Origin: Gammaproteobacteria bacterium
GTDB lineage: Bacteria > Pseudomonadota > Gammaproteobacteria > Eutrophobiales > Eutrophobiaceae
Length of the DNA stretch: 50,467 nt
Direction: 5' to 3'
Assembly (NCBI GenBank): GCA_047618295.1
Contig: JBLHKL010000001.1
Span: forward strand, 1-50,467
A program made the translations under genes and the position numbers. Positions 23,475-41,578 of the stretch are shown piece by piece. Position 1 is the stretch's first letter. Every line of letters begins with the position of its first letter. The notes below the pieces were generated by a model, which saw only the letters and a list, made by a program, of their open reading frames with translations, had not been told where the DNA came from and made no database searches.

Positions 23475-23482
23475 AATTAATT

Positions 23483-25138: not shown

Positions 25139-25147
25139 TCGTTCTGT

Positions 25148-26425
25148 CTACATCCCTTCTATAACTTGTTTCAGAATTAAACTGACATTGGCATACGGAG
25201 ACTGCCTTAGTTTTTTTAATGGAAGTGATACCACACTGTCAGTGCGAATCAACTGTCCTGAATGGTCAACTCCCGGGGTTGATACCGGAATAAAAACATC
25301 GGGTTTAAAGTTTAATTTAGTATCAGGTGTGCCGAGTACTATTGTTGGTATTGATGCATGAGGTGGTTTCACATTTGAACTAAAGCTTGAAACCCATAAC
25401 AGGGAATCGACATCTTTATTTTTAAGCACGTTTTGTGTTGAATACCGTTGGGCATCATAATCAGGATAACCTTTATTAAAGTTAACACGTAATGGATAGC
25501 CACTTTGCCATGCACAAACGCTATTCGCACTTGTTGCGCCATCGTCACCCCCTAATGAAAACCCAGCAAAACGAGTAAAGCGTGTTAAATATTTAACAAT
25601 TTCACAGAAATTTTGAATTGTAAGTTCGGCATGAGGAATATCTAGTTCGGCTGGAGACCAGACAATAACGCCATATTTAGCCGTCTTCATTTGCTCAGCT
25701 AAAGATTGTAGTGTCTTAATTTTTATTCCAGCTATTTCATTTACATCAAGTGTTGCGCCTGTTACCAGCGCATGCAGACCTGATATGACTTCGCCTATCT
25801 GTTCAGTTTTGCAATTGAGAGTCGTGGGACGTTTACCATTGGGATTTATCCCGGCTTTACTATCAAGTTGATCACCGATGTACACAATTTGGCGCTGCTC
25901 ATTCTTGAGCTTAAACATGGATTGTTTATTCCATATGGTACGTTCGAAAAATCGTGGAAAATTTGTTGCGTCAGTGCCGGCAAAAATAATTAAATCTGCA
26001 CGGTTTCTGATTTCGCTCATGGTCGTTGTGATCCAGCCGAGATCCTGCAATACAAGTGAGTTACGGATAAGTGCATTACCATGCATGTGGTCAACTATGG
26101 CACCGGTTTTATCTGCAAGATGCATTACTTGTCGCATTCCACCAACATCAGTACCAAGACCAGCAAATAATGGGTTATGTGACTTTTTGAGAATGACACA
26201 TATTGCATTTATCGCATCTGAAAGAGGGGCATTGTTACCGTTTATTTTTGGAGAATCTGTCGCTTGTTTAGATTCAAAAGAGGAGACTGCTTTGGGACAG
26301 CCATTTTCAAGTATCTTTAGTGTCTCATCCTTATTTTGGATAACCAAATCATCACACAGTATCCCACAGAAAGGACAGGTCACATCCTTGTTGATGACAC
26401 TAGAAATATTTGATGTTTTTTCCAA
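25148..26425 (-). CDS. fhcB: Formyltransferase/hydrolase complex subunit B (FwdB homologue lacking pterin active-site residues)
   Basis: N-terminal CPFCGILCDD...GCP cluster motif and overall FwdB fold blocks (EIRNRADLIIF, WQSGYP). The catalytic Cys-His is replaced by Met-His (VDHMHGN, Met codon 26084..26086) and the RGH block by LGGDDG. TTG start with an AAGGAG RBS. Confidence 0.85.
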   Translation of the reverse strand: MEKTSNISSVINKDVTCPFCGILCDDLVIQNKDETLKILENGCPKAVSSFESKQATDSPKINGNNAPLSDAINAICVILKKSHNPLFAGLGTDVGGMRQVMHLADKTGAIVDHMHGNALIRNSLVLQDLGWITTTMSEIRNRADLIIFAGTDATNFPRFFERTIWNKQSMFKLKNEQRQIVYIGDQLDSKAGINPNGKRPTTLNCKTEQIGEVISGLHALVTGATLDVNEIAGIKIKTLQSLAEQMKTAKYGVIVWSPAELDIPHAELTIQNFCEIVKYLTRFTRFAGFSLGGDDGATSANSVCAWQSGYPLRVNFNKGYPDYDAQRYSTQNVLKNKDVDSLLWVSSFSSNVKPPHASIPTIVLGTPDTKLNFKPDVFIPVSTPGVDHSGQLIRTDSVVSLPLKKLRQSPYANVSLILKQVIEGM

Positions 26426-26598: not shown

Positions 26599-27981
26599 TT
26601 ATTCTGTAACTGACAACATTTCATCAATATAGGTGTATTTCTCTCTAGGTTTCCCTTTGGGTTCTCCACGCTCAATTTCTTTAGCGTCTATCTTCTTCCA
26701 ATCATCATAACTCACATGATGAATGTTCTTACTTTCTAAAACTGTAAATATCGCGTTAGCACCTGATTTCTTACTACCATCATCCAACTTTGTTAGATCT
26801 TGTATTAGACAAGCAACGGTTTCAACACTGCAAGCTCGATTTGTGCCAATTATGCCACTAGGCCCACGTTTAATCCAACCCGCGGTATAAAATTGTGGAA
26901 CGATATTGTTATCATTATCAGTAACCCTGCCTTTTTCATTAGGGATGGTGCCCCAACTTTCATGAAATGGCACTCCCGCAATGGGGACACCTCGATAGCC
27001 GATGCTCCGAAACAAAATACCACTTTCAAGTTCTATTGTTTCTCCTGTACCTCTGGCAGATTGTTTAAAAGGTTCTCCGGATAAGCCATTTTTTTCAAGC
27101 ACGACTTTTTCTAATCTAGAATCGCCAACTAGTTCTTTGGGGCCCATTAAAAATCTGAAAAAACATTTTTTTGATTTACTACTGTCAATATCACGTTTAG
27201 AAAAATCGCAAAATAGATCGTAGATTTTTTTACTGGCGACATTACTTTTTTCTTCTAATTCTTTTTCGCTTTCTGGATTAAGGATAATATCTTCTGGAAG
27301 CACGATAGGGCTGCAATCTGCTAGTTCACCAAATTCACGTAACTCTTTAGGTGTCAATTTAGCTTGTGCAGGTCCACGTCTGCCAATGACATGTATTTCC
27401 TTTATCTTACTTTCAGCAAGTGTGTCTAGTGCGTGTTGTGCGATATCAGTATGCTTTAATTCATCGACAGTTTTAGACAATATTCTACTGACATCAGCAG
27501 CAACATTTCCTTGTCCGATAATGACTGCGACATCATGCGAAAGATCAAATTCACGATCACGATAGTCAGGGTGGCCATTATACCAACCGACAAATTCTGT
27601 AGCCGTATAACTGCCTTTTAAATCTTCACCAGGGACACCTAACTTACGGTCTGACTCTGCGCCGCAAGTAAAGATAACAGCGTGATGAGATTCACATAAC
27701 TCGTTAACGGTAATATCTGTTCCGACTGTTACATTGGCTATCAAATTGAAATCGGGTGATGCAGCAATTTTTTCATATAGCTTGATTGCTTGTTTCAATT
27801 TTTGATGATCTGGCGCAACACCGCTTCGGACTAGACCGAATGGAGAAGGTAAGCGTTCGAGTATATCTACCTTAATTGTGATATCAGATTTAAGCAGGGC
27901 CTCTGCGGCATAAAAACCACTGGGGCCGCTGCCAACGATGGCGACTAATAGTGGGTTTTGTTCAGTTCCAAGTGATGACAT
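26599..27981 (-). CDS. FprA/adrenodoxin-reductase-type NADPH:ferredoxin oxidoreductase
   Basis: VAIVGSGPSGFYAAEALL FAD motif, GLVRSGVAPDH, FVGWYNGHP, IIGQGNVAADVSRIL NADP motif, GWIKRGPSGIIGTN: collinear with Mycobacterium FprA (about 456 aa). Confidence 0.85.
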   Translation of the reverse strand: MSSLGTEQNPLLVAIVGSGPSGFYAAEALLKSDITIKVDILERLPSPFGLVRSGVAPDHQKLKQAIKLYEKIAASPDFNLIANVTVGTDITVNELCESHHAVIFTCGAESDRKLGVPGEDLKGSYTATEFVGWYNGHPDYRDREFDLSHDVAVIIGQGNVAADVSRILSKTVDELKHTDIAQHALDTLAESKIKEIHVIGRRGPAQAKLTPKELREFGELADCSPIVLPEDIILNPESEKELEEKSNVASKKIYDLFCDFSKRDIDSSKSKKCFFRFLMGPKELVGDSRLEKVVLEKNGLSGEPFKQSARGTGETIELESGILFRSIGYRGVPIAGVPFHESWGTIPNEKGRVTDNDNNIVPQFYTAGWIKRGPSGIIGTNRACSVETVACLIQDLTKLDDGSKKSGANAIFTVLESKNIHHVSYDDWKKIDAKEIERGEPKGKPREKYTYIDEMLSVTE

Positions 27982-27989
27982 TATAAGAA

Positions 27990-28295
27990 TTAAAAGCCTA
28001 ATTCGGACTTACGCTCTTCAGCGCCGGGCAGAGGATCCATTTGTTCTTCACAAACTGGCAGGTCAGGTGCTTTTTCAGCATTGATCTCAATCCATTTTTC
28101 TTGATCTTCCGGGATATCATCTCCTTCAAAGATGGCCTGGACAGGACATTCTGGTATGCATGCACTGCAGTCAATACAAACATCCGGGTCGATATACAGC
28201 ATTTCATCATCATAATGAAAGCAGGCGACAGGACAGACTGTTACACAATCAGTAAAACGGCAGCTTTTACAGTTCTCAGTTACGATTGTTGTCAT
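27990..28295 (-). CDS. fdxA: 7Fe-type ferredoxin (Azotobacter FdI / FdxA family)
   Basis: Cys spacing CxxCxxxxCxxxCP ... CxxCxxCxxxCP (ENCKSCRFTDCVTVCP; CIDCSACIPECP), and overall collinearity with A. vinelandii FdI including the PEDQEKWIEINAE tail. 8-nt gap to the reductase gene. Confidence 0.88.
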   Translation of the reverse strand: MTTIVTENCKSCRFTDCVTVCPVACFHYDDEMLYIDPDVCIDCSACIPECPVQAIFEGDDIPEDQEKWIEINAEKAPDLPVCEEQMDPLPGAEERKSELGF

Positions 28296-28352: not shown

Positions 28353-29165
28353 TTACTTACCCGCGTACAATAAAATTTCACCTCGGTTTAATTCAATCGA
28401 GTCTCCGCACCAACGTTCGAAGGGGCTATTCATTAATGAATCACTGATTGTGAGTCCAAGTGATTGTAAATATTTAAAATAGTGACGAAGAAATAAAGGT
28501 TGATAATCACAACTTTTACTAAAAGTTGGCAATAGCTCAGTTTTAGTCTGACAAATGATTGAACCGCGTTTCATTCCCGCACCAGGACGAATACCCATCT
28601 CTCCAAGTACAATAATTGTACCAGCGAGCATGTTTACACCCGTAAAGTCACCTGAGTTGCCACCGACGACAATTAAGCCACGTCGCATAACATGGCCGGT
28701 TTCATTTTTTACATTGCCATGCACAATGATTTCTCCACCTTGCATACCAATAGTACTGCCGCGGTAACCACTACCGACCATGTGGCCTGCATTACCTTTA
28801 ATGGTAATCTTGCCACCAAGCATTTCCGGACCTACCCAATCAGAGGCATCACCCTCGATGATTATTTCACCTCCACTCATGGCAGCACCGGTATGGACAC
28901 CGACATTACCTGAGACAGTGATTTTTCCAAAGGACATGGACGAAGCTATGTGCTTTACATCTACTAAATCACCTTCAATATTTATCTCACCATCAAATTC
29001 ACCACTACATTCAAAGAAATCTTTGAGTGGAACTTGGCGGTTACCATGAAATACGGTTAGGTTTTCTATTTCAGTTGTACTGAGTGATTGCATTCGGTCG
29101 GGACAAATACAGTCCGCTTCCAAAGGTACTTCGGGTTTAGTATGTAGTTTTAATTTGAGAGCCAT
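28353..29165 (-). CDS. fwdC: Formylmethanofuran dehydrogenase subunit C homologue (second copy)
   Basis: The same Gly-rich beta-helix repeats (GNVGVHTGAAMSGG, GDASDWVGPEMLGG, GNAGHMVGSGYRG, GNSGDFTGVNMLAG). Clearly diverged from the 21757..22581 copy. Confidence 0.85.
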   Translation of the reverse strand: MALKLKLHTKPEVPLEADCICPDRMQSLSTTEIENLTVFHGNRQVPLKDFFECSGEFDGEINIEGDLVDVKHIASSMSFGKITVSGNVGVHTGAAMSGGEIIIEGDASDWVGPEMLGGKITIKGNAGHMVGSGYRGSTIGMQGGEIIVHGNVKNETGHVMRRGLIVVGGNSGDFTGVNMLAGTIIVLGEMGIRPGAGMKRGSIICQTKTELLPTFSKSCDYQPLFLRHYFKYLQSLGLTISDSLMNSPFERWCGDSIELNRGEILLYAGK

Positions 29166-29168
29166 TCG

Positions 29169-30080
29169 TTAAGTTTCCCCACTCCAATCTTTCGAGGCCA
29201 AGAGCTGATGTAAATGCATATGATATTGACCAAGCCCACCACCATAATTACCCGCTGATATTTTCTTAATGCCAGGTTTAGCTGCAGCGATTGCGCCAAC
29301 ACGCATCGCTTGTTCTACTGCCTCTAGTGTTAAACCATCGATAACGATTTCAAGAACACTATTAATACCATCATCTAGCTCAGAGTTTTCTACCACGCCA
29401 CGCAGTGTTGGGCAGTACGCATCATTTGTAGAAGCAATCAATTTTTTATATTTAGAACCGACCTTACTACCGCTGCGAACAACCCCATTAGGGAAGGGAA
29501 GGATGATGTCGGTTAATTCACGCATTGCTTTTGTCGCAGCACTTGCTGCCTTCAATGTCGCTTTTTGATCTTTACCTAAAATTAATAAATTACCACCACC
29601 GACAGATTCTTGAACATTAAACTTATCGTCAACTAGGAACTCACCATCCATGACAGGGATACGCCATAGTTTCGAACCTCCAAGTACCTTGCTGATTTGA
29701 TGACCGTCGCCAAAGTAGCGCAATTGACCACCGACGATAACAGGCAAGCCTTCGGCTAAGCCGTTATAACAAGCAGTCGTAGGACAGGTCATAACACATT
29801 GACCAATGCGTTCCATTAAACGTTTGCCCAGGCTTTCAGCATCCATGGCAAAGATTAAAACGCTTACTCCCGGTCTTAGATCAGGAGAGTCCTTAGCATC
29901 AATAATAGCTTCTATTCCAGCTTCACATTTACAACCAATGACGGAGGTTGCAAAACCAGTTATTGATTGTGCTGCCGCCATGGCCCATTCTTTTGACTCT
30001 GCAGTAATGATGACGCGACTGCCATACATCTTGAAGGCTTCGGCAAAGGTATCGACAATAGTTGTTGATTTGATCTTCAT
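29169..30080 (-). CDS. ftr: Formylmethanofuran:tetrahydromethanopterin N-formyltransferase (second copy)
   Basis: VDTFAEAFKMYGSRVIITA..., RSGSKVGSKYK, ISAGNYGGGLG blocks. Paralogous to, but diverged from, fhcD. Confidence 0.88.
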   Translation of the reverse strand: MKIKSTTIVDTFAEAFKMYGSRVIITAESKEWAMAAAQSITGFATSVIGCKCEAGIEAIIDAKDSPDLRPGVSVLIFAMDAESLGKRLMERIGQCVMTCPTTACYNGLAEGLPVIVGGQLRYFGDGHQISKVLGGSKLWRIPVMDGEFLVDDKFNVQESVGGGNLLILGKDQKATLKAASAATKAMRELTDIILPFPNGVVRSGSKVGSKYKKLIASTNDAYCPTLRGVVENSELDDGINSVLEIVIDGLTLEAVEQAMRVGAIAAAKPGIKKISAGNYGGGLGQYHMHLHQLLASKDWSGET

Positions 30081-30082
30081 AG

Positions 30083-31723
30083 CTATGCCTTTCCTGTTGC
30101 TATGATTTCATGGTCATGAAGATAGCTATCATCTACTGCATAATTAGAAAATTCGATTGAATAATAACTTTCGAAGAAGGGTTGCACGACTTCTTCAATT
30201 TTCTTGTCATATTCGGGTGTGATATGTAAGAGTTTGCCGATGAAATCAGTAATAAACTCATGATTGCCTATGATGGTATTTCCTGACTTGATGACGTAAC
30301 GCGGGGCATTAAACATCATCTCTTTATCATCCATTTCATCGTATATTGTTATATCGGCATCTGCACCAACACCTAAATGACCTTTGTTTTTTAAACCTAA
30401 GGCTCTAGCAGGACCTGCTCTTGTAATAATAGCGATTTCGTTCAAGGTAAATTCACGATCTAAATCGCGCAGTGAACAATTCTCCAATGCGCTTTGATTG
30501 ACGCGTTTCATTTCTTCATGACGGAATGCCTTATCCATCAGCAGTTTAATGAGCTTGGGATAATTCATGAACGAGCCGCCGTTAGGGTGGTCTGTCGATA
30601 AAACCACTCGCCAAGGATCTTTTGCCATTAAGAATATTTCAAGACCAATTGCCCACTGCAGGGTGTGCATATAAATGTGTTCTTGATAGTTGAAAGGGAG
30701 GATCCCGCAGCCACTTTCACATTCTGTATCTGCATTAACCCATTTGCCTTTGGTATGCCCCTTTAAAACATAAGCCAATGGTGCATCAGCTGTCATGATA
30801 GTCGACTTACCAAACATAACCTGACCGACATCACAGGTGATGTTCGGATGGTTATCAACGTACTCAACAATTTCCGCAGCTTTAGAAATCGGTTGCTTGC
30901 CCAGTTCGCCGCCATAACTATGAAACTGGATATGGGCAATATGGGCGCGCATATCCCCGGCTGTTTTCATTGTTTCCAGTGTGGTTTTATAGTTGCCACT
31001 ATGACCCAGGTTGTTGCAGTGGATATGCGGTGGGTGAGGAAAGCCTTGTTTGTCAACGGACGTTATAAACGCTTCAATAATTTGGCGTGGCGTCAGGCCT
31101 TCATCTGTTTTTTCATCGATGTCAGAGACATTTGAGTTTTTCTTACCTTTCCAGGGTTCATCACCACCGGGATTAACTAATTTTACCGTATAAGCCTTTG
31201 TTGCATTGATCCACCAGGCCACGGCCTGATCAAACTCTTCCATACGCTTTTCACGCAGTAGATTCTGCAGGAATATATTTTCGCCAAGTAAGACATAAAA
31301 ACCTTTGTCAATGACAGGAGTATCGTGAAATTCTTCAAGCGTGTGTCTCGCACCAATGGGAGTTACAGCTGCTTCCATTGCTGTTGTGTAACCCAAGGTT
31401 GCATAGCGATACCCGGTAGCAAATGTAGAGGGAACTGTGCCGCCTGTACCTGACCGTGTGAAGGGTGTTCCGGGATGCACATCATGACGATGATCTTCAG
31501 GCTGAAGTTTTCTTGCTACGTTTACTTTGGGGCCAGCAATGTGGCAATGGATGTCAACACCACCCGGCATAATGACCATGCCTTGTGCGTCAATAACGGT
31601 TGCATCTTCAGGAACAGAATCGACTATTCTGCCGTCCTGAATGCAGATTTCTTTTATCTTGCCATCTATATTATTGGCAGGGTCATAGACTTTGCCATTT
31701 ACGATGCGCATAACTGCTGACAT
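30083..31723 (-). CDS. fwdA: Formylmethanofuran dehydrogenase subunit A (amidohydrolase; second copy)
   Basis: GVDIHCHIAG, HIHCNNLG, HIAHIQFHSYG, STDHPNG blocks. The track start is a GTG at 31726; the ATG at 31723 has better spacing to the AGGGG RBS. Confidence 0.88.
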   Translation of the reverse strand: MSAVMRIVNGKVYDPANNIDGKIKEICIQDGRIVDSVPEDATVIDAQGMVIMPGGVDIHCHIAGPKVNVARKLQPEDHRHDVHPGTPFTRSGTGGTVPSTFATGYRYATLGYTTAMEAAVTPIGARHTLEEFHDTPVIDKGFYVLLGENIFLQNLLREKRMEEFDQAVAWWINATKAYTVKLVNPGGDEPWKGKKNSNVSDIDEKTDEGLTPRQIIEAFITSVDKQGFPHPPHIHCNNLGHSGNYKTTLETMKTAGDMRAHIAHIQFHSYGGELGKQPISKAAEIVEYVDNHPNITCDVGQVMFGKSTIMTADAPLAYVLKGHTKGKWVNADTECESGCGILPFNYQEHIYMHTLQWAIGLEIFLMAKDPWRVVLSTDHPNGGSFMNYPKLIKLLMDKAFRHEEMKRVNQSALENCSLRDLDREFTLNEIAIITRAGPARALGLKNKGHLGVGADADITIYDEMDDKEMMFNAPRYVIKSGNTIIGNHEFITDFIGKLLHITPEYDKKIEEVVQPFFESYYSIEFSNYAVDDSYLHDHEIIATGKA

Positions 31724-31945
31724 CACATACCCCTAAATATTATCGTTATATTTTAATGAGTAATTTTACGACGGCAGCAACCTGCAATTTTTTAATCAAA
31801 ATACTATTAGTTATTAAAACAAATAACAGTTTATATTAATGATTAGTACTTATTTTCTCGTAAATGGTCTCAATTTATTTCTAAAAATTACACTACAAAA
31901 ACACTATAGTTTATGCAGGACTAAAATTAAAGTGACGCTTGCCTT

Positions 31946-33307
31946 TTAAATAGGGGCAGCCACTTTTACTGCGCCGCTAGCACCACTTGCATAGTGTTTA
32001 GCTAACATTAATTCATTCACTCTTTTATTTATACCCTTTAAAATCGTTTCGTCATCTGGAAACGGAGATTCAAATGCCGGACGCAAGGTTATCGGCACAT
32101 TATCCATTCTGTATACGGTTCCAGTTGTATTGATACCGTAGGTAGAAGTGCGGAACGCGACATGTGCATCTTTACTGGTTTCAGTACATTTAGTGTCGAG
32201 CACAACTATGGGAATATTTTTTAAATGTGCAATCGCTTTCTTGGGAAAATTAGATGCGGGGTCACTTGCAATGAACATTGCTGCATCGGCATGGCCATTT
32301 GCCAAGGTGTCGACTGTCGTGAATTCACCTGGATTAAAACGGGGATAACCACGACTAAAATTAACGCCAAAGGGATAACCTGTCTGCCAAGAGACAACAT
32401 TGTCAGCACCAGTGACATTGCCGTGACCACGCACGGGCATGGCAACAAAATGAGTGAATTCGTTTAGATCAGTTGCCAGAGCGAGTAGGGCGCCTGAGTT
32501 GAAATGGCGACCACGTGTCATGGTCAGGCCCATACCAAAGAAGAGCACACCAAATCGGCAGTTCTTCATGCGGTCGCTTAGATCTTGTAACACTTCCAGA
32601 GGAACACCGGTACGTTCTTCAATGTCATCTGATAATTTTTTACCTTTGACCAATGCGCGTAAAGCCCATAAAACTTCAAAATCTTTCCCTGGTTTCGGTC
32701 GAATCAGGATGTCGGCAACGGGAGAGCTTTTTGTCTTGCGCACATCAATAAGTACTATTGTGCGATCTTTTTTACCGCGAGGGGTAAACATGCCTTTCGG
32801 AGTTACGGCGTAACGACCAAAATGACGGGGATGCGATTCAGCAGGGTTACCACCCCAATAGATAACTAAATCAGCTCTATTTTTAACTTCGCCCAAAGTA
32901 CTGGTACTTTCGCCCACACCTTGGAATGCCAGGCCGGATGGGCCATGACAGACAGAAGTTGTGGTATCGATGTTGCCTTTGATTCTATCCGTGATTGCAA
33001 CAGCTTGGCGTTGAGCTTCGCATGTTGTATCACTCAGGCCATAGGTAATGGGAAATTTTGCTTTGGTTAGTGTTTGTGCTGCTTCTTCTATGGCTTCTTC
33101 GACTGAGACTTCTTTGCCATCAATCATCGCTGCTGGAGCGCCTTCTTCTATCGTATGTTCCGCGAACCATGCACGCCCGAGAACGCAGGCATTTTTAGAT
33201 TTTATGATTTTCTTCTCGTCGAGATCGACAGTTAGAATCATGTCATCGCAGACACAGCCGCAAAAGGTGCACGTTGCATTTTCAATGATCTTGGTATTTT
33301 CGGTCAT
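31946..33307 (-). CDS. fwdB: Formylmethanofuran dehydrogenase subunit B, archaeal-like with intact pterin active-site residues
   Basis: N-terminal Cys cluster (CTFCGCVCDD...NACV). DTTTSVCHGPSG with Cys120-His121 (codons 32945..32950). GEVKNRADLVIYWGGNP..HPRH. MPVRGHGNVTG (Arg293). WQTGYPFGVNF. From memory, closely collinear with Methanothermobacter FwdB. Confidence 0.85.
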   Translation of the reverse strand: MTENTKIIENATCTFCGCVCDDMILTVDLDEKKIIKSKNACVLGRAWFAEHTIEEGAPAAMIDGKEVSVEEAIEEAAQTLTKAKFPITYGLSDTTCEAQRQAVAITDRIKGNIDTTTSVCHGPSGLAFQGVGESTSTLGEVKNRADLVIYWGGNPAESHPRHFGRYAVTPKGMFTPRGKKDRTIVLIDVRKTKSSPVADILIRPKPGKDFEVLWALRALVKGKKLSDDIEERTGVPLEVLQDLSDRMKNCRFGVLFFGMGLTMTRGRHFNSGALLALATDLNEFTHFVAMPVRGHGNVTGADNVVSWQTGYPFGVNFSRGYPRFNPGEFTTVDTLANGHADAAMFIASDPASNFPKKAIAHLKNIPIVVLDTKCTETSKDAHVAFRTSTYGINTTGTVYRMDNVPITLRPAFESPFPDDETILKGINKRVNELMLAKHYASGASGAVKVAAPI

Positions 33308-33346
33308 AGTAACTATTACACCTAAATCGAAAAATATATTGTTAGT

Positions 33347-33694
33347 TTAAGTTGTGATTTTCTCAATTTCAACTTCCATGTGCTTAGATAATGGCATACC
33401 AGAGCCTGCCGTGTCACTAGCCATTAATTCGCTTGAAGGTGGTCCATAAGGAATAAACAACATGCCATCGGGTAAATCCTCTGGTTTTTTACCAATACAA
33501 GTTACTGTTGTTTCACCAATTTCATTGCTGAGACGAACTTTATCGCCATCGACAAGCCCCCTTTTTGCCATTTCATCTGTATTCATTTCCAGAGTTGATG
33601 TGACTTGTTTGTATTCCTCCTTGAGTTTGCCTATGTTTAGGCTCGTTCCCTGTTTAGCAGAACGACCTGGAATTAGGATCATCTTTTCTGACAC
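33347..33694 (-). CDS. fwdD: Formylmethanofuran dehydrogenase subunit D (molybdopterin-dinucleotide-binding barrel)
   Basis: 115 aa. Pattern ...GR..KQG......K.EY......L.MN..DM.K.GL.DGDKV.L....GE..V.......P.GM.FIPYGP....L....T.GSGMP..K...VE.E matches archaeal FwdD/FmdD. GTG start 6 nt after an AAGGAG RBS. Confidence 0.8.
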   Translation of the reverse strand: MSEKMILIPGRSAKQGTSLNIGKLKEEYKQVTSTLEMNTDEMAKRGLVDGDKVRLSNEIGETTVTCIGKKPEDLPDGMLFIPYGPPSSELMASDTAGSGMPLSKHMEVEIEKITT

Positions 33695-33868: not shown

Positions 33869-34897
33869 ATGGATAATAAACAATCAATAAGCAAATCGAG
33901 GCAGGTGAGTGTTAATGCACCTGCTAGATTACATCTAGGGTTTCTCGATCTGCATGGGGGACTTGGAAGAAAATTTGGTAGTTTGGGGCTGTCTATTAAG
34001 GATGTTGAAACCTCGCTCACAGCAGAATATGCCGACGATATTGACGTGACTGGTCCTTCCGCTAAACGAGCAGAGGATTATGCGGAACAAGTATTGTCCC
34101 ATTTTGGGATTAATGGCGGGGTTAAAATGACGATTAAGTCTGCTATACCTGAACACTCCGGCTTAGGTTCAGGGACGCAATTGTCATTAGCTGTAGCTTC
34201 GGCTATCTCCAACTTATACGAATTATCTGAACAACACCCCAATCGACTTGCTGCGGTCTTACATCGAGGGGCTCGTTCAGGGATCGGTATTGGCACCTTT
34301 ATGCATGGCGGGTTTATAATCGATGGTGGTCGAGGAGAGAATACTGACGTTCCCCCGGTTATCAGTCATATGTCTTTTCCGGACAATTGGCGGATCGTAT
34401 TAATATTTGATGATGCAGCAGAAGGTATTAATGGCGTGCCAGAACGACGAGCGTTTAATACCTTGCCGCCAATGGATGATGTAATGTCAGGTTTGCTATG
34501 CAGATTGACATTGATGCAAGTGTTGCCGGCTATTAGAGAAAAAGATTGTAAACAATTTGGGGAAGCAATTACTCAGATTCAAAATATTGTTGGCGACTAT
34601 TTTGCTGTTGCTCAGGGAGGCCGTTATACCTCGCCTTTTCTTAAGCCTATTCTTGACTCTATGAAGAACAGCGGCGCGACTGGGATGGGACAAAGTTCCT
34701 GGGGGCCAACCGGCTTTGCATTTTTCCCTGATGAGACACTGGCATTTCAAGCAATGAAAAAAGTTCGTGAGGAGTGGCAATCAGAATCAAGACTACGTTT
34801 TGTCATGAGTGAGGCCTGTAATTCCAAAGCAAAAATTATATTAAATGATCTGAACACACCAACACAAAACGAAAACTTGAAAGTAACAAATTTATAA
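33869..34897 (+). CDS. mptG: Beta-ribofuranosylaminobenzene 5'-phosphate (RFAP) synthase, first committed step of H4MPT biosynthesis
   Basis: GHMP-kinase-like fold with the characteristic N-terminus VNAPARLHLGFLDLHGGLGRKFGSLG and the PEHSGLGSGTQL motif. Divergent from fwdD. Confidence 0.85.
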   Translation: MDNKQSISKSRQVSVNAPARLHLGFLDLHGGLGRKFGSLGLSIKDVETSLTAEYADDIDVTGPSAKRAEDYAEQVLSHFGINGGVKMTIKSAIPEHSGLGSGTQLSLAVASAISNLYELSEQHPNRLAAVLHRGARSGIGIGTFMHGGFIIDGGRGENTDVPPVISHMSFPDNWRIVLIFDDAAEGINGVPERRAFNTLPPMDDVMSGLLCRLTLMQVLPAIREKDCKQFGEAITQIQNIVGDYFAVAQGGRYTSPFLKPILDSMKNSGATGMGQSSWGPTGFAFFPDETLAFQAMKKVREEWQSESRLRFVMSEACNSKAKIILNDLNTPTQNENLKVTNL

Positions 34898-34920
34898 CTT
34901 GAAGAGAGAACTATAAGAAA

Positions 34921-35829
34921 ATGAAAGGTCACTATTTATTACATATGTTTAACCCAACAAAAAATGTTAGTCCGTTTGATGTCAATATGGCCTATGAAGC
35001 AGAGTTTGATGGTGTTATTCCTTATTCTGAAGTCGCGTTAGATGATATTCATGCTCTAACTCAAGACACGATTTTTTCACGTGGTACAAAAGGCGTTAAA
35101 CGAACCGGTATTTTTATCGGGGGCAGGGAATTTGGATTAGCAATTGATATGCTGAATCGGGCGAAGACGGCAATGGTCCCTCCATTTGAGGTTTCTGTCT
35201 TTGCTGACCCCAGTGGGGCAATAACAACGGCTGCAGCATTAGTAGCTTGTATAGAGCTGCAATTAAAAAAGAAGACAGGTGAATCGTTATCTGGGAAACG
35301 TATCGATATTATCGGTGGTACCGGCCCGGTTGGTGTCTGCGCCGGAATTTTAGCAGCAAAATGCGGAGCGACAGTCTACTTGACCAGTCGCAGAGGCGCT
35401 AAAGTAGCTACTGAGTACGCTTCAGAATACAACGCTCGCTTTGGCGTGAAGATGTTGGGTGCTGATAGCAGCACTGATGATAAGGTCATGGATTTTCTTA
35501 CAGAATCTAATATAGTCGTTGGCGCTGCGAAAGCAGGCATACAAGTGCTATCAAAGAGACAATTAGCTGAGGCAACTAATTTATTAGTTGCTGCTGATGT
35601 AAATGCAGTGCCTCCACTAGGCATTGAAGGTGTCGGTGTTCATGACATGGGCGTAGAGATGCCTGATACACCGCAAAATGCAGTTGGGCTTGGTGCCTTG
35701 GGTATTGGTGATATCAAATATAAGATTCATTTCAAGATGTTTGAAATGATGAAAAAAACAGACAAACCACTGTACCTTGATCATGAACGTGCATTTGATG
35801 TAGCCAGAGAAATTGTTAGCAAACTTTAA
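34921..35829 (+). CDS. mtdB: NAD(P)-dependent methylene-tetrahydromethanopterin dehydrogenase
   Basis: About 300 aa of the MtdA/MtdB family (NVSPFDVNMAYEA, IFIGGR, GGTGPVGVCAGILAA Rossmann). Position mptG-mtdB-ATPgrasp-mch matches the H4MPT clusters of methylotrophs. The MtdB versus MtdA call rests on context. Confidence 0.8.
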   Translation: MKGHYLLHMFNPTKNVSPFDVNMAYEAEFDGVIPYSEVALDDIHALTQDTIFSRGTKGVKRTGIFIGGREFGLAIDMLNRAKTAMVPPFEVSVFADPSGAITTAAALVACIELQLKKKTGESLSGKRIDIIGGTGPVGVCAGILAAKCGATVYLTSRRGAKVATEYASEYNARFGVKMLGADSSTDDKVMDFLTESNIVVGAAKAGIQVLSKRQLAEATNLLVAADVNAVPPLGIEGVGVHDMGVEMPDTPQNAVGLGALGIGDIKYKIHFKMFEMMKKTDKPLYLDHERAFDVAREIVSKL

Positions 35830-35886
35830 TATTGAATTTAAAGATTGAGATCCTCTTTAGAATCTTGTTCTGAGCGGGACTGATAG

Positions 35887-37008
35887 GTGGCTGAGCTTCT
35901 CATTGTTGCGCGTTCAGGAAGGGCGCTAGCTACATCAGCTTATCAAGCTGGATACAAAGTACATGTGTTGGATTGTTTTGCAGATGAAGATACAAAAACT
36001 GTATCGAAGACTACTCATCAGCTTCAGTATCATTGTGAAGGATTTGATAAGACAGAGTTAATGGAGCAAGTGAAAGGGCTGGTTTCTTGTTACCCAAAAG
36101 CAATGTTGGTTGTCGGTAGCGGGTTTGAGAACACGCCAGAGCTGCTTGAAAGTCTAGCGGAAATCATTCCTGTCATGAGCAATGATAATAGCACCATTCA
36201 CAGTTTGAAAGACCCTGTTGCCCTTTATGACCTGTTGAGACGTGCTTCTATCAAGGTGCCTGAGATTTCGTTAATACGACCAAGTAATTCTGAGGGTTGG
36301 TTGTTAAAAGAAATTGCAGGCATCGGTGGTGGTCATGTTAAATGGTTGTCACAAATAAACTTGAGCAGTGGTTCTGGTTATTATCAAAAGTACATCTCAG
36401 GCAATGTTTTAAGCGCAGTATTTCTAGCAAGAGAAACATATGCAACACTTGTGGGCATTAACGAACAATTACAATCAAAGCAATTTAACGAAATGCCTTT
36501 TCTGTTTAAAGGTGCAGTTAAATTAAATTCAGTTGATGAACAGCATAGACAAAATGTTATAGAAATTATTAATAAGATAACAAAGCAAACTGGTTTAAAG
36601 GGGCTTTGCGGTGTTGATTATATTGTTGAGGATTCTGGAGAGATTGTTGTGCTTGAGGTTAATCCAAGACCACCATCCTCTTTTGAATTGCATGAACAAC
36701 AATCTGTTTTATTCGATGCGCATCTAGCTTGTTTTGAGGGTAAAGAGATCGATTGTCAGTTTAGTCAGGATAATCAATCAAAAGGTTATGTTATTTATTA
36801 TGCAAAACAAGACATTAAAATTAACAGTAATATAGTTTGGCCAAGCTGGGTTAAAGACAAGCCCTCTATTGGTTCTACTATTGCAGAAAAATCCCCTGTA
36901 TGTACTGTTCATGCAGAGGACGAATCGGCAAGGAATGTTAAGGCTGTTTTGCAGAAACAATTAAATTATATTGAAACAGTTATTATGGCAGAGCAACATG
37001 CTGCCTGA
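35887..37008 (+). CDS. ATP-grasp family protein of the H4MPT cluster (orf5-like; cofactor biosynthesis ligase, exact reaction unknown)
   Basis: ATP-grasp blocks (LLKEIAGIGGGHVKW, YQKYISG, GLCGVDYIV.....VVLEVNPRP). Conserved position between mtdB and mch. Coordinates taken from the ORF track. Confidence 0.7.
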   Translation: MAELLIVARSGRALATSAYQAGYKVHVLDCFADEDTKTVSKTTHQLQYHCEGFDKTELMEQVKGLVSCYPKAMLVVGSGFENTPELLESLAEIIPVMSNDNSTIHSLKDPVALYDLLRRASIKVPEISLIRPSNSEGWLLKEIAGIGGGHVKWLSQINLSSGSGYYQKYISGNVLSAVFLARETYATLVGINEQLQSKQFNEMPFLFKGAVKLNSVDEQHRQNVIEIINKITKQTGLKGLCGVDYIVEDSGEIVVLEVNPRPPSSFELHEQQSVLFDAHLACFEGKEIDCQFSQDNQSKGYVIYYAKQDIKINSNIVWPSWVKDKPSIGSTIAEKSPVCTVHAEDESARNVKAVLQKQLNYIETVIMAEQHAA

Positions 37009-37044
37009 AACTTATAAACTAAATCTAGAAATGAGGAAGAAAAA

Positions 37045-38019
37045 GTGAGCAAGCAAATATCATCTCCTAGTCTTAATGCTTTGACAGCACCTTTAGTTGA
37101 TAACTTAGTTGTTAATGCATCGGCATTACGATTAGACATCACCAAGCTGGATAATGGTTGTCGTATTATTGATGCGGGAATTAACGTGCCGGGCGGACTA
37201 GAAGCGGGAAGATTAATTGCAGAAATATGCATGGGCGGATTGGGAACGGTAAAATTACGAGCATCAACAAATTTTCGCAACTGGTCGTGGCATCTGGATG
37301 TACATAGCACGAACCCAGTCTTGTCATGTTTGGGTAGCCAATATGCCGGGTGGAGTTTGAGTCACGGTGAGGGAAAGGGTGCATTTAATGCCTTGGGCTC
37401 AGGACCAGCTCGCGCTATCGGGAGTAGTGAAGAACTTTACGATGAACTGGGATATCGTGATTCAGGAGAGCATGCTTATATAGTCATTGAAGCGGATAAA
37501 ATTCCACCGGTAGAAATTGCGGATAAAATAGCTGAGAAATGTGGCATTGCTACTTCTGCATTAACCATAATAATGACACCGACATCGAGTTTGGCAGGTT
37601 CTGTACAGGTGGTAGGTAGAGTATTGGAAACGGCACTACATAAAGCACATGCATTACATTTTCCATTAGAAAATATTATCGATGGTGCTGGCAGTGCTCC
37701 TATCTGTCCTCCATCGAAAGATTTTTTAACGGCCATGAGCAGGACTAACGATTCAATTTTATTTGCGGGTCAAATACAGTTATTTGTTGAAGCCAGTGAT
37801 GATGATGCCAGAGATTTAGCCAATAAATTGCCGAGTAGTTCATCTAATGACTATGGAAGACCCTTTGGTGAAATTTTCAAAGATGTTGGTTATGATTTTT
37901 ATAAGGTTGACCCGATGTTATTTAGTCCGGCACAAGTTGCTGTGAGTTCGTTAACTACAGGGCATACATTCCATGCCGGAAAGATTGATCTTGATTTGCT
38001 GGATAAATCATTTAATTAA
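37045..38019 (+). CDS. mch: Methenyl-tetrahydromethanopterin cyclohydrolase
   Basis: 324 aa. [11 protein letters not shown]..., [39 protein letters not shown]: typical Mch. GTG start. Confidence 0.9.
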
Positions 38020-38021
38020 AC

Positions 38022-38954: not shown

Positions 38955-38956
38955 AT

Positions 38957-39796: not shown

Positions 39797-39971
39797 TAAA
39801 AGATATAATTAAAGAATTTACGACAAATACGGGCAAAAAGATCTTTTCTTTTTGCTAGTTATACTGGGTGGGGGTTATATCCCTTGTTAATTTTAAATTT
39901 AAATAAATAGGAAGGCGGCGATGTCTATATTAGCTAAATTATGTGGCTTTCTAACTGGAGGAGATAAAAAA

Positions 39972-41504: not shown

Positions 41505-41578
41505 TTCAGTTTCTCTCAATTTTTGACTAGTGTCTGTGAATGCCAGTAGTTTTTCACAATTATCAGTTGATTGGTAGT

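What the first reader, a model, noticed from the sequence alone, without database searches (positions are those of the whole stretch)
28353..33694. Second, archaeal-type and apparently redox-competent formylmethanofuran dehydrogenase module (fwdD-fwdB / fwdA-ftr-fwdC) beside the canonical Fhc cluster
The window carries two diverged sets of FwdA/FwdB/FwdC/Ftr homologues on the same strand. Only the second set has a FwdD homologue (33347..33694). Its FwdB also keeps the residues expected at a Mo/W-bis-pterin formate/CO2 site: SVCHGPS (Cys120-His121, codons 32945..32950), VRGHGNVTG (Arg293), and an N-terminal Fe-S Cys motif. In characterised methylotrophs the homologous Fhc complex is a non-redox formyltransferase/hydrolase that releases formate. 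In methanogens, FwdB+FwdD is the tungsto-/molybdopterin unit that interconverts CO2 and formate, feeding FwdA. Here an ftr gene sits between fwdA and fwdC, as in Fhc. The predicted complex is therefore a chimera: Fhc-like architecture plus an intact redox module. It could oxidise formyl-H4MPT/formyl-MFR directly to CO2 (or run in reverse) in a bacterium. I do not know of a characterised bacterial example.
Basis: partly seen in the sequence, partly recalled or inferred. Interest (0 to 1): 0.85.

Follow-up and report, generated by a model that had tools for sequence, protein, structure and literature searches.

The report
Redox-type formylmethanofuran dehydrogenase cassette in Gammaproteobacteria
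Next to its ordinary formate-releasing Fhc enzyme, this uncultured marine methanol-oxidising bacterium carries a second, methanogen-like enzyme set that keeps every sequence feature needed to oxidise the formyl group straight to CO2, and that is always encoded with its own ferredoxin and NADPH reductase.

Summary
The minus strand carries two paralogous sets. Set 1 (21757-26425) is a canonical non-redox Fhc: FhcB has Ala/Leu/Gly in place of the Cys/His/Arg triad, and there is no FwdD.

Set 2 (28353-33694) is fwdD-fwdB-fwdA-ftr-fwdC.
- FwdB keeps the four Fe-S cysteines, Cys120-His121 and Arg293.
- It keeps 49 of 50 columns conserved among catalytic FwdBs; FhcB keeps 26 of 50.
- The 115-aa ORF is an FwdD by sequence and by predicted fold.

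The unit is larger than reported. A 7Fe ferredoxin (27990-28295) and an FprA-type NADPH:ferredoxin reductase (26599-27981) follow fwdC. This seven-gene order is colinear in 57 of 60 evaluable loci from uncultured, mostly gammaproteobacterial genomes (36-65% GC).

Most likely function: formyl-H4MPT is oxidised to CO2 inside one complex, and the electrons leave through ferredoxin and FprA to NADP+.

It is not unprecedented. The fwdDBA-ftr-fwdC order was reported in an actinobacterial single-cell genome, and a "formyl oxidation system" is described in NC10. None has been characterised. A 2016 review stated that fwdD is absent from Proteobacteria.

I rate it a new variant of a known kind, of moderate to high interest.

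The parts
33347..33694 (-). fwdD: 115-aa molybdopterin-dinucleotide-binding 'domain IV' subunit that caps the pterin site
   Evidence: PF01568, 45 bits. NF042908 FwdD, 75 bits. PDB FwdD chains, E 3e-15 to 5e-8. AF2 model pLDDT 75.5; Foldseek best hit M. wolfeii FwdD, TM 0.79. Only one homologue in the window.
31946..33307 (-). fwdB: 453-aa Mo/W-bis-pterin subunit. Fe-S cysteines at 13, 16, 20 and 41; Cys120-His121; Arg293
   Evidence: TIGR03129, 505 bits. 42% identity to M. wolfeii FwdB over 429 columns, with only indels of 1-2 residues. Triad invariant in 121 of 121 aligned sequences. Keeps 49 of 50 catalytic-clade conserved columns.
31727..31945 (-). AT-rich fwdB-fwdA spacer with invariant sequence blocks; possible internal regulatory element
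   Evidence: No ORF in it. The blocks TGAGACCATTTACGAG and TCGTAAAATTACTCAT..AAAATATAAC..TATTTAGGGGTAT are conserved in 11 loci. No covariation was seen.
30083..31726 (-). fwdA: 547-aa amidohydrolase (formyl-methanofuran hydrolase/condensing site)
   Evidence: TIGR03121, 693 bits. Best PDB hits are archaeal FwdA (406-479 bits), above M. extorquens FhcA (340 bits). The metal-ligand motifs HCH (60-62), KLVNPGG (182), HIHCNN (234), HIQFH (265) and STDHPNG (377) are present.
29169..30080 (-). ftr: 303-aa formylmethanofuran:H4MPT formyltransferase, placed between fwdA and fwdC as fhcD is in Fhc
   Evidence: PF01913 plus PF02741; TIGR03119, 411 bits. 294 bits to M. extorquens FhcD and 290 bits to M. 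kandleri Ftr.
28353..29165 (-). fwdC: 270-aa beta-helix subunit with an Fhc-type C-terminal helix-loop-helix (predicted Ftr docking platform)
   Evidence: TIGR03122, 267 bits. The alignment to FhcC 6S6Y_C runs to residue 266; alignments to archaeal FwdC stop at 207-221. AF2 pLDDT 94, with helices at 224-235 and 242-246. TMq is 0.91 to 6S6Y_C and 0.89 to 5T5I_C.
27990..28295 (-). fdx: 101-aa 7Fe ([3Fe-4S][4Fe-4S]) ferredoxin of the Azotobacter FdI/FdxA type; proposed electron acceptor of FwdB
   Evidence: NF045490 FdxA, 112 bits. A. vinelandii FdI, about 104 bits, with all nine Cys positions aligned. Starts 57 bp after fwdC. Present directly after fwdC in 57 of 60 evaluable loci, at 72-99% identity.
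26599..27981 (-). fprA: 460-aa adrenodoxin-reductase/FprA-type NADPH:ferredoxin oxidoreductase
   Evidence: M. tuberculosis FprA 1LQT, 351 bits over the full length; bovine adrenodoxin reductase, 319 bits; GRRGP motif aligned. Starts 8 bp after fdx. Colinear in 57 of 60 loci.
21757..26425 (-). Paralogous canonical Fhc cluster (fhcB 25148-26425, fhcA 23483-25138, fhcD 22578-23474, fhcC 21757-22581); non-redox comparator
   Evidence: FhcB has Ala/Leu/Gly in place of Cys/His/Arg. The best PDB hit of FhcA is M. extorquens FhcA, 439 bits. Paralogue identities to set 2: B 28%, A 45%, Ftr 53%, C 36%.
17007..21478 (-). NAD-linked formate dehydrogenase (alpha 17007-19817; NuoE/NuoF-fusion beta 19817-21478) directly downstream of Fhc; the conventional route for formate released by Fhc
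   Evidence: Pfam domains. NuoF/NuoE families. 1211 bits to M. extorquens tungsten FDH1 alpha, with the CH motif kept.
33869..40484 (+). Divergently transcribed H4MPT pathway and cofactor genes (beta-RFAP synthase, mtdB, ATP-grasp, mch, mptN, CitG-like, fae) that supply formyl-H4MPT
   Evidence: NCBIfam and Pfam hits. The same divergent arrangement is found in most related loci.

Best explanation
Set 2, together with the two genes after it, encodes a bacterial formyl-methanofuran (methylofuran) dehydrogenase complex. It has a built-in formyltransferase and a dedicated electron-output chain.

Proposed path:
1. Fae, MtdB and Mch, encoded divergently upstream, make formyl-H4MPT. This follows from family membership and the established pathway.
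2. Ftr2 is docked on the Fhc-type C-terminus of FwdC2 and moves the formyl group to the furan cofactor. Docking is inferred from sequence and model.
3. FwdA2 hydrolyses the formyl-furan cofactor at its binuclear metal site. The ligand motifs are present.
4. Formate is not released. It is oxidised to CO2 at a Mo- or W-bis-pterin centre held by FwdB2 (Cys120, His121, Arg293) and capped by FwdD2. The residues and fold are shown; the metal, cofactor and activity are inferred.
5. Electrons leave through the FwdB2 [4Fe-4S] cluster to the 7Fe ferredoxin, then to the FprA-type flavoprotein, which reduces NADP+. This is inferred from strict gene linkage and from the absence of the FwdF/FwdG polyferredoxins.

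Net reaction: formyl-H4MPT + NADP+ + H2O -> CO2 + H4MPT + NADPH + H+. With E0' about -530 mV for formyl-MFR/CO2 and -320 mV for NADP+, this is strongly exergonic.

The neighbouring Fhc plus NAD-FDH form a parallel route that frees formate and yields NADH.
For: Catalytic competence of FwdB/FwdD:
- Family scores.
- Residue mapping to the solved FwdB.
- Triad and Fe-S cysteines invariant in 121 aligned sequences.
- 49 of 50 catalytic-clade columns kept, against 26 of 50 in FhcB1 and a mean of 35.6 in 99 representatives that lack the Cys.
- In 29 loci that hold both sets, the FwdB2 orthologue is more conserved than the FhcB orthologue in 29 of 29 (median 81% vs 55%). The A subunits do not differ much (80% vs 77%).
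- FwdD fold.

Fhc-like docking of Ftr: gene order and the FwdC2 C-terminus.

Electron chain:
- fdx is a 7Fe FdI-type ferredoxin and fprA an FprA/AdR-type reductase.
- The order D-B-A-ftr-C-fdx-fprA is colinear in 57 of 60 evaluable loci spanning 36-65% GC.
- In L051 the seven genes sit between unrelated housekeeping genes, so they travel as a unit.
- No polyferredoxin, and no other CxxCxxCxxxC protein apart from the FDH alpha subunit, is in the window.

Thermodynamics: -0.53 V for the FMD reaction (PMC11656701).

Precedent: an FMD wired to a higher-potential acceptor for oxidative operation is the F420-reducing FMD of Ca. Ethanoperedens (PMC11656701; 8RJA).

The cell can make this type of cofactor: the adjacent FDH alpha subunit is a close homologue of the tungsten FDH1 of M. 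extorquens.
Against: - There are no biochemical, metal-content or expression data.
- The window holds no molybdate/tungstate transport genes and no Moco genes, and no Moco riboswitch.
- FprA-type enzymes are best known for passing electrons from NADPH to ferredoxin. Gene linkage alone does not give direction.
- The 7Fe ferredoxin is a one-electron carrier, and its [4Fe-4S] cluster is very low-potential (my own knowledge).
- 3 of 60 loci lack part of the cassette: L019 has no fdx-fprA nearby, L066 has no ftr, fdx or fprA, and no FwdD hit was found in L009.
- These bacteria are probably aerobes (a XoxF-like PQQ dehydrogenase is in the window), whereas the characterised FMDs come from anaerobes.
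Confidence: 0.6

Rival explanations
1. Same complex, opposite direction: NADPH reduces the ferredoxin through FprA, and the complex fixes CO2 to formyl-methanofuran and then formyl-H4MPT, as in methanogens.
For: FMDs are reversible. FprA-type enzymes usually work from NADPH to ferredoxin (my own knowledge; family shown).
Against: Driving a -530 mV couple from NADPH at -320 mV is strongly endergonic, and no bifurcating module (Hdr, Nfn or hydrogenase) is in the cassette. The context is oxidative C1 metabolism: fae, mtdB, mch, a XoxF-like dehydrogenase and NAD-FDH.
Confidence: 0.08
2. FwdBD2 is catalytically active, but fdx-fprA serve another process, such as cofactor biosynthesis (for example dihydromethanopterin reduction) or general NADPH/ferredoxin balance. 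The physiological acceptor of the dehydrogenase would then be something else.
For: The ferredoxin weakly matches the Fe-S domain of archaeal dihydromethanopterin reductase (TIGR02700, E 1.7e-6). H4MPT biosynthesis genes are neighbours in many loci. L019 and L066 carry Fwd genes without fdx-fprA. Another bacterial Fwd island, L081, has none either.
Against: fdx-fprA always follow fwdC directly on the same strand, with median gaps of 69 and 73 bp. They stay with the fwd genes when the H4MPT genes are elsewhere: L051 has housekeeping flanks, and in the L056/L061/L063 group the cofactor genes are 3.7 kb further downstream.
Confidence: 0.15
3. Set 2 is a second non-redox formyltransferase/hydrolase whose active-site residues are merely inherited. 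FwdB and FwdD would act as scaffolds without a pterin.
For: Most FwdB-family representatives are degenerate, and most still keep the N-terminal cysteines. Only about 24 of 121 full-length representatives have the Cys. Loss of function is therefore common in this family.
Against: Triad invariant in 121 of 121; 49 of 50 catalytic columns kept; B2 is far more conserved than the scaffold paralogue in 29 of 29 genomes; FwdD is retained with 45 invariant columns among 48 sequences. In Fhc, FwdD is absent and loops fill the pterin site (PMC6926001). FwdB2 has no indel longer than 2 residues relative to FwdB.
Confidence: 0.07
4. FwdBD2 mainly acts as an alternative formate dehydrogenase isoenzyme for free formate, for example one made by Fhc, or one used under a different Mo/W or redox regime. 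Its output would be NADPH instead of NADH.
For: FwdBD is structurally a formate dehydrogenase (PMC11656701). The Fhc cluster lies directly downstream in 28 of 54 loci. Methylotrophs are known to keep several FDH isoenzymes (my own knowledge).
Against: A complete paralogous FwdA, Ftr and FwdC are co-conserved with B and D. That would be unnecessary for a free-formate enzyme. In 23 of 54 loci neither an Fhc nor an Fds gene follows fprA within the sequence held.
Confidence: 0.1

Closest known systems
Archaeal tungsten/molybdenum formylmethanofuran dehydrogenase (FwdABCDFG of Methanothermobacter wolfeii, PDB 5T5I; also 7BKB, 9SW6, 9SFI)
   Same: FwdB with an N-terminal [4Fe-4S] motif and the Cys-His...Arg pterin site. 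A separate FwdD. A FwdA amidohydrolase. A FwdC beta-helix. B, A and D of set 2 score best against these chains.
   Different: No FwdF/FwdG polyferredoxin and no FwdE. ftr is inside the operon. FwdC has the Fhc-type C-terminus. A 7Fe ferredoxin plus FprA are encoded in place of polyferredoxins. The host is a probably aerobic methylotrophic gammaproteobacterium. Identity to M. wolfeii FwdB is only 42%.
Formyltransferase/hydrolase complex FhcABCD of Methylorubrum extorquens (PDB 6S6Y; PMC6926001)
   Same: Gene order B-A-ftr-C. The FhcC-type C-terminal helix-loop-helix that docks the formyltransferase. The H4MPT-linked formaldehyde oxidation context. A true Fhc paralogue sits next door in the window.
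   Different: Fhc has no FwdD, no Cys/His/Arg and no N-terminal Fe-S domain, and it releases formate. Set 2 keeps all the redox features. Set-2 FwdB gives only 52 bits to FhcB 6S6Y_B, against 370 bits to FwdB.
fwdDBA-ftr-fwdC operon of the Hakuba actinobacterial single-cell genomes (Merino et al. 2020, PMC7325909), and the 'formyl/formate oxidation system' Damo_0456-60 in the H4MPT cluster of Ca. Methylomirabilis oxyfera (PMC6094997)
   Same: Bacterial. The actinobacterial operon has an identical five-gene order, with the N-terminal Fe-S domain and the catalytic Cys noted. Both were predicted to be possibly active, and neither has been characterised.
   Different: Different phyla and physiologies. 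The actinobacterium reportedly lacks H4MPT biosynthesis genes. Neither description mentions an fdx-fprA module or a co-resident Fhc paralogue. A 2016 review stated that fwdD is absent from Proteobacteria (PMC5020050).
F420-reducing formylmethanofuran dehydrogenase of Ca. Ethanoperedens thermophilum (PDB 8RJA; PMC11493965, PMC11656701)
   Same: An FMD that runs oxidatively and is wired to a higher-potential two-electron acceptor as a thermodynamic pull. Set-2 subunits match its chains strongly (B 361 bits, A 479 bits).
   Different: There the acceptor module is an F420 reductase bound in the complex. Here it would be a soluble-type 7Fe ferredoxin plus an FprA flavoprotein reducing NADP+.
FprA / 7Fe-ferredoxin redox pair (Mycobacterium tuberculosis FprA, PDB 1LQT; Azotobacter vinelandii FdI)
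   Same: Full-length homology: 351 bits to FprA and about 104 bits to FdI, with all cluster cysteines aligned.
   Different: Those proteins are known as NADPH-to-ferredoxin suppliers or regulators, not as outputs of a C1 dehydrogenase. The operonic linkage to fwd genes is specific to this clade.

Membership tests
Formylmethanofuran dehydrogenase (Fwd/Fmd) | FwdB with an N-terminal four-cysteine [4Fe-4S] motif | tested here: met
   Cys13, Cys16, Cys20 and Cys41 align to the FwdB cysteines. They are conserved in all orthologues that have an intact N-terminus.
Formylmethanofuran dehydrogenase (Fwd/Fmd) | Mo/W ligand Cys (or Sec) followed by His, plus the catalytic Arg (Cys118/His119/Arg288 in M. 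wolfeii) | tested here: met
   Cys120, His121 and Arg293 align exactly. Invariant in 121 of 121 aligned sequences.
Formylmethanofuran dehydrogenase (Fwd/Fmd) | Separate FwdD subunit (the fourth, pterin-capping domain) | tested here: met
   PF01568; the NF042908 model; PDB FwdD hits; AF2 plus Foldseek, TM 0.79 to 5T61_D.
Formylmethanofuran dehydrogenase (Fwd/Fmd) | Pterin-binding framework retained (no degradation of conserved columns, no loops filling the pocket) | tested here: met
   49 of 50 columns conserved among Cys-His-Arg FwdBs are kept. Only indels of 1-2 residues relative to 5T5I_B. Individual MGD contacts were not enumerated.
Formylmethanofuran dehydrogenase (Fwd/Fmd) | FwdA amidohydrolase with binuclear-metal ligands, and a FwdC beta-helix | tested here: met
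   TIGR03121 and TIGR03122 are above their cutoffs. The ligand motifs were located by inspection. The FwdC model has pLDDT 94 and matches FwdC/FhcC chains.
Formylmethanofuran dehydrogenase (Fwd/Fmd) | Polyferredoxin electron module (FwdF/FwdG), as in the characterised archaeal complexes | tested here: not met
   There is no polyferredoxin in the window. The only CxxCxxCxxxC proteins are the 101-aa 7Fe ferredoxin and the FDH alpha subunit. The match to FwdG is marginal (E 1e-3).
Formylmethanofuran dehydrogenase (Fwd/Fmd) | Contains Mo or W bis-MGD and oxidises formyl-MFR / reduces CO2 | not testable with these tools
   This needs the purified protein, metal analysis and activity assays.
Formyltransferase/hydrolase complex (Fhc) | Formyltransferase gene inside the operon, and an FhcC-type C-terminal helix-loop-helix docking platform | tested here: met
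   Gene order. The alignment to 6S6Y_C extends through residues 213-262. The model has helices at 224-235 and 242-246.
Formyltransferase/hydrolase complex (Fhc) | B subunit without pterin ligands, no FwdD; a non-redox enzyme that releases formate | tested here: not met
   Set 2 keeps the triad and FwdD, so it is not an Fhc in the strict sense. Set 1 (21757-26425) does meet this feature. Formate release itself cannot be tested here.
FprA/adrenodoxin-reductase-type NADPH:ferredoxin oxidoreductase | Full-length homology, with the FAD and NADP domains and the GRRGP 2'-phosphate motif | tested here: met
   351 bits to 1LQT over residues 9-457; GRRGP is aligned. The role of that motif in NADP specificity is from my own knowledge.
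7Fe (FdI/FdxA-type) ferredoxin | The Cys pattern of a [3Fe-4S] plus a [4Fe-4S] cluster (FdI Cys8, 16, 20, 39, 42, 45, 49) | tested here: met
   Cys9, 17, 21, 40, 43, 46 and 50 (plus 12 and 25) align to the FdI cysteines. NF045490 gives 112 bits, below its cutoff of 135.

The most novel reading that the evidence does not exclude
A widespread clade of uncultured, probably aerobic Gammaproteobacteria runs an NADP-coupled formyl-methanofuran dehydrogenase supercomplex (Ftr-FwdABCD plus a dedicated 7Fe ferredoxin and FprA). This would be a living intermediate between the archaeal CO2-reducing Fwd and the bacterial non-redox Fhc. It already has the docked formyltransferase of Fhc but has not lost the pterin site. 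It would be the first FMD known to work in an oxic cell with a pyridine nucleotide as terminal acceptor.
Probability: 0.4. Interest if true: 0.78.

Novelty: new variant of a known kind. Interest (0 to 1): 0.62.

Why it matters
Textbook bacterial methylotrophy ends the H4MPT pathway with Fhc, which throws away the dehydrogenase function and releases formate. [quoted passage not shown]

A conserved proteobacterial cassette that keeps the pterin site, and that carries its own ferredoxin and NADPH reductase, would have four consequences.

1. It would add a second route from formyl-H4MPT to CO2, one that channels formate and yields NADPH rather than NADH. Carbon and redox budgets for abundant marine, soil (a USC-gamma MAG) and sponge-associated lineages would need revising.
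2. It would provide a concrete intermediate for the proposed evolution of Fhc from Fwd.
3. It would point to an FMD that may tolerate oxygen and use NADP(H). That is attractive for the CO2-capture chemistry for which FMDs are being studied (PMC11656701).
4. It would caution against annotation pipelines that label both paralogues 'formylmethanofuran dehydrogenase' without distinguishing redox from non-redox forms.

Tried and rejected
- **Riboswitches.** An Rfam scan of the whole window for a Moco or tungsten riboswitch, or any other RNA family, gave no hit at gathering thresholds.
- **Mo/W genes.** I looked for molybdate/tungstate transporters and Moco genes among all larger ORFs of the window and found none. 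In five related loci a ChrA-family transporter follows fprA. It is restricted to one sub-lineage, so I did not use it as evidence.
- **Origin of FwdB2.** A neighbour-joining tree of 124 FwdB/FhcB-like sequences places FwdB2 next to the Cys-His-Arg clade that contains M. wolfeii, and far from FhcB1. It has no support values and no taxon names, so archaeal transfer versus ancient bacterial retention is unresolved.
- **Names for the nearest 50%-identity representatives.** Cluster look-up gave almost none; one was from Pirellulales.
- **Structure in the fwdB-fwdA spacer.** RNAalifold finds stems, but 0 of 18 pairs covary.
- **Foldseek on FwdC2.** It does not cleanly separate Fhc-type from Fwd-type (TMq 0.91 vs 0.89). 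That argument rests on the sequence alignment and on the model's secondary structure.
- **Promoter and terminator scan.** Counts were not above shuffles.
- **Cultured hosts.** The best 80 genome hits and all named protein hits are MAGs.
- **Literature.** Searches by clade name (Porisulfidus, Oxydemutator, UBA973, marine bacterium B5-7) returned nothing useful. Adam et al. 2019 (Nat Microbiol) is not in the library.

Full report
**1. Observation**

ORF listing shows one long minus-strand array.
- fwdD: 33347-33694.
- fwdB: 31946-33307.
- A 219-bp AT-rich spacer.
- fwdA: 30083-31726.
- ftr: 29169-30080.
- fwdC: 28353-29165.
- A 101-aa gene: 27990-28295.
- A 460-aa gene: 26599-27981.
- A second B-A-ftr-C set: 25148-26425, 23483-25138, 22578-23474 and 21757-22581.
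- An NAD-type formate dehydrogenase: 19817-21478 and 17007-19817.

Pfam and NCBIfam place both sets in the FwdA/B/C and Ftr families. Only the set-2 B subunit clears the FwdB model comfortably (505 bits against 327.4, with a cutoff of 327.8). Only set 2 has a small Molydop_binding/FwdD protein, and tblastn finds no second FwdD in the window. Independent MAG assemblies show the identical arrangement, so it is not an assembly artefact.

**2. Is the redox module intact?**

Set-2 FwdB aligns to the solved tungsten FwdB of M. wolfeii over residues 7-434. The only indels are 1-2 residues long, and identity is 42%.
- SVCHGPS matches SVCHGPS (Cys118-His119).
- VRGHGNVTG matches MRGHYNVTG (Arg288).
- The CxxCxxxC...C Fe-S motif is conserved.

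The set-1 FhcB has Ala, Leu and Gly at the triad positions. According to Hemmann et al. (PMC6926001), Fhc lost dehydrogenase function through three changes: loss of these residues, absence of FwdD, and loops that fill the pterin pocket.

Three quantitative tests point the same way.
- The triad and the Fe-S cysteines are invariant in all 121 aligned sequences, the window's own plus 120 orthologues.
- Fifty alignment columns are at least 90% conserved among 16 Cys-His-Arg FwdB representatives. Set-2 FwdB keeps 49, FhcB1 keeps 26, and 99 representatives that lack the Cys keep 35.6 on average.
- In 29 genomes that carry both sets, the FwdB2 orthologue is more conserved than the FhcB orthologue in 29 of 29 cases (median 81% vs 55%). 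The A subunits are about equal (80% vs 77%), and Ftr1 is actually more conserved than Ftr2.

So the B subunit of set 2 is under enzyme-like constraint, and that of set 1 under scaffold-like constraint.

The 115-aa protein matches five FwdD chains by sequence. Among 48 homologues it has 45 invariant columns. Its AF2 model (pLDDT 75.5) is closest to M. wolfeii FwdD (TM 0.79), followed by A. fulgidus and Ethanoperedens FwdD. FwdA2 has the binuclear-metal motifs.

**3. Fhc-like features**

ftr lies between A and C, as in fhcBADC. The beta-helix core of FwdC2 scores better against archaeal FwdC (168 bits) than against FhcC (130 bits). Those archaeal alignments stop near residue 207-221, however, whereas the FhcC alignment runs to residue 266. 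That stretch covers the region which, in Fhc, forms a helix-loop-helix instead of the archaeal beta-hairpin and belongs to the subunit that docks the formyltransferase (PMC6926001).

The AF2 model of FwdC2 (pLDDT 94) has helices at 224-235 and 242-246. Foldseek gives TMq 0.91 to FhcC and 0.89 to FwdC, so it does not discriminate.

By PDB scores, A2 is Fwd-like (406-479 bits to archaeal FwdA, 340 to FhcA). A1 is Fhc-like (439 bits to FhcA, 378-422 to archaeal FwdA). The 'chimera' description is therefore fair.

**4.

The 101-aa protein is a 7Fe ferredoxin of the Azotobacter FdI/FdxA type, with all cluster cysteines aligned. The 460-aa protein is a full-length homologue of M. tuberculosis FprA and of adrenodoxin reductase, that is, an NADPH:ferredoxin oxidoreductase (351 and 319 bits). 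They start 57 bp and 8 bp after the preceding genes.

A scan of one genome per GTDB species found at least 561 relatives of FwdB2. The best 80, at 74-98% identity, are all MAGs. Most are labelled Gammaproteobacteria, and they include a USC-gamma soil MAG, sponge-associated MAGs, Ca. Oxydemutatoraceae and Ca. Porisulfidus. Locus GC content ranges from 36% to 65%.

In 57 of the 60 loci long enough to judge, the order fwdD-fwdB-fwdA-ftr-fwdC-fdx-fprA is strictly colinear. The ferredoxin is among the best conserved of the seven (median 84% identity, against 80% for FwdB2).

What follows fprA varies: Fhc in 28 loci, the FDH genes in 3, and neither in 23. In L051 the seven genes sit between recA, alaS, lysC and gmd on one side and psd and aroC on the other. 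The seven genes therefore behave as one mobile functional unit.

No polyferredoxin (FwdF/FwdG) is present in the window.

**5. Mechanism**

The best-supported reading is a formyl-methanofuran (methylofuran) dehydrogenase with a docked formyltransferase. Its electrons would leave through the FwdB cluster to the 7Fe ferredoxin, and from there through FprA to NADP+. The reaction potential is about -0.53 V (PMC11656701), and NADP+ is at -320 mV (my own knowledge). The overall oxidation would therefore be strongly exergonic.

The closest analogy is the 'thermodynamic pull' proposed for the F420-reducing FMD of Ca. Ethanoperedens. The adjacent Fhc plus NAD-FDH would be a parallel route that frees formate. 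The FDH alpha subunit gives 1211 bits to the tungsten FDH1 of M. extorquens.

What is shown:
- gene content and gene order;
- residue and fold conservation;
- linkage of the seven genes.

What is inferred:
- pterin and metal content;
- formate tunnelling;
- Ftr docking;
- the ferredoxin/FprA partnership;
- the direction of electron flow.

I put 0.6 on the whole statement. On its own, I put about 0.75 on 'FwdBD2 is a functional pterin dehydrogenase'.

The rivals are scored in their own section:
- reverse operation, that is, CO2 fixation;
- fdx-fprA serving another process;
- a second non-redox Fhc;
- a free-formate FDH isoenzyme.

**6. Comparison with the literature**

- Hemmann et al. [quoted passage not shown]
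- The 2024 FMD review lists Fhc as the only structurally characterised bacterial homologue.
- Wells et al. first noted an absence of bacterial FwdB (2020). They later counted 149 bacterial FwdB hits in a survey and attributed them to transfer from Archaea, without functional analysis (2023).
- Merino et al. (2020) described exactly the order fwdDBA-ftr-fwdC in an actinobacterial single-cell genome. They noted the Fe-S domain and Cys118 and suggested the complex 'could be active'.
- The Methylomirabilis literature speaks of a highly transcribed 'formyl/formate oxidation system' inside the H4MPT cluster.
- I also found another bacterial H4MPT island with fwdD and a Cys-His-Arg fwdB but no fdx-fprA (L081).

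So the kind of enzyme, and even the five-gene order, are on record as genomic predictions. In the literature I could search, the following appear to be new:
- its wide occurrence in Proteobacteria;
- its coexistence with a canonical Fhc paralogue;
- the conserved ferredoxin/FprA output module.

Public annotation already labels these proteins 'formylmethanofuran dehydrogenase subunit B/C/D'.

**7. Verdict**

- Novelty: a new variant of a known kind.
- Interest: 0.62.

A specialist would find it notable and directly testable. It is an extension of the FMD/Fhc family, not a new principle, and its function remains a prediction.

Noticed in passing
window 31727-31945 (minus strand), fwdB-fwdA spacer: A 219-bp AT-rich spacer without an ORF. 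It holds blocks that are invariant across 11 diverged loci: TGAGACCATTTACGAG and TCGTAAAATTACTCAT..AAAATATAAC..TATTTAGGGGTAT. These include a 7-bp inverted repeat about 105 nt apart and a possible stem over the fwdA ribosome-binding site. None of the 18 predicted pairs covaries.
   Followed up: partly
window 25148-26425 (FhcB of set 1; Cys17, Cys20, Cys24, Cys43): The non-redox FhcB still has the complete N-terminal four-cysteine [4Fe-4S] motif. So do about 118-120 of 124 FwdB/FhcB-like sequences, whether or not they keep the pterin triad. M. extorquens FhcB lacks this domain and looks like the exception. An Fe-S cluster in a 'scaffold' subunit is unexplained.
   Followed up: partly
window 17007-21478 (minus strand): The formate dehydrogenase directly downstream of the Fhc cluster is a close homologue of the tungsten-containing FDH1 of M. 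extorquens (alpha subunit 1211 bits to 7VW6/7E5Z, with the Cys-His motif kept). Its partner is a NuoE-NuoF fusion. This hints that tungsten may matter in this organism.
   Followed up: partly
L044 17699-19033, L068 16958-18307, L070 16744-18093, L078 about 16937-18265, L080 about 17456-18763: In five related loci a ChrA-family (chromate ion transporter, PF02417) gene follows fprA directly. Chromate, molybdate and tungstate are all group-6 oxyanions, so a role in Mo/W supply is conceivable. The gene is restricted to one sub-lineage.
   Followed up: partly
proteins P0121, P0122, P0127, P0129, P0146, P0152, P0200, P0256 (50%-identity representatives): Natural FwdD-FwdB fusion proteins of 570-640 aa exist, with FwdD at the N-terminus, matching the fwdD-fwdB gene order. 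One of them, P0122, has Gly in place of the metal-ligand Cys while keeping His and Arg, so it may be a degenerating intermediate.
   Followed up: partly
L066 (MAG labelled Gemmatimonadota), L019 (OZ251218.1), L009: These three loci are the exceptions to the seven-gene order. L066 has fwdD-B-A-C with no ftr, fdx or fprA. L019 has about 1.1 kb of extra sequence between fwdB and fwdA and no fdx-fprA within 5 kb. L009 shows no FwdD hit at the thresholds used.
   Followed up: no
L081 5699-17311 (context of P0271): This is another bacterial H4MPT island of unknown phylum: mtdB, ATP-grasp, fwdD, fwdB (Cys-His-Arg), fwdA, flavoprotein, pterin-binding protein, DUF447, GHMP kinase, ftr, fwdC, mch. Cofactor genes lie between fwdA and ftr, and there is no fdx-fprA.
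   Followed up: no
window 12451-15186 and 40587-46186: A 645-aa PQQ-dependent (XoxF-like) dehydrogenase is followed by a 146-aa cupredoxin. On the far side of the H4MPT genes lies a 1535-aa hybrid sensor kinase with four periplasmic SBP_bac_3 domains, next to a response regulator with PAS domains. These two are possible regulators of the C1 island.
   Followed up: no
NJ tree of FwdB-like representatives (P0128, P0135, P0170, with P0137): A second small group with an intact Cys-His-Arg triad (context RRMRV..YGDVA) sits inside the otherwise degenerate FhcB-like radiation. This suggests that redox-type B subunits are scattered in more than one bacterial lineage. The tree has no support values.
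   Followed up: no
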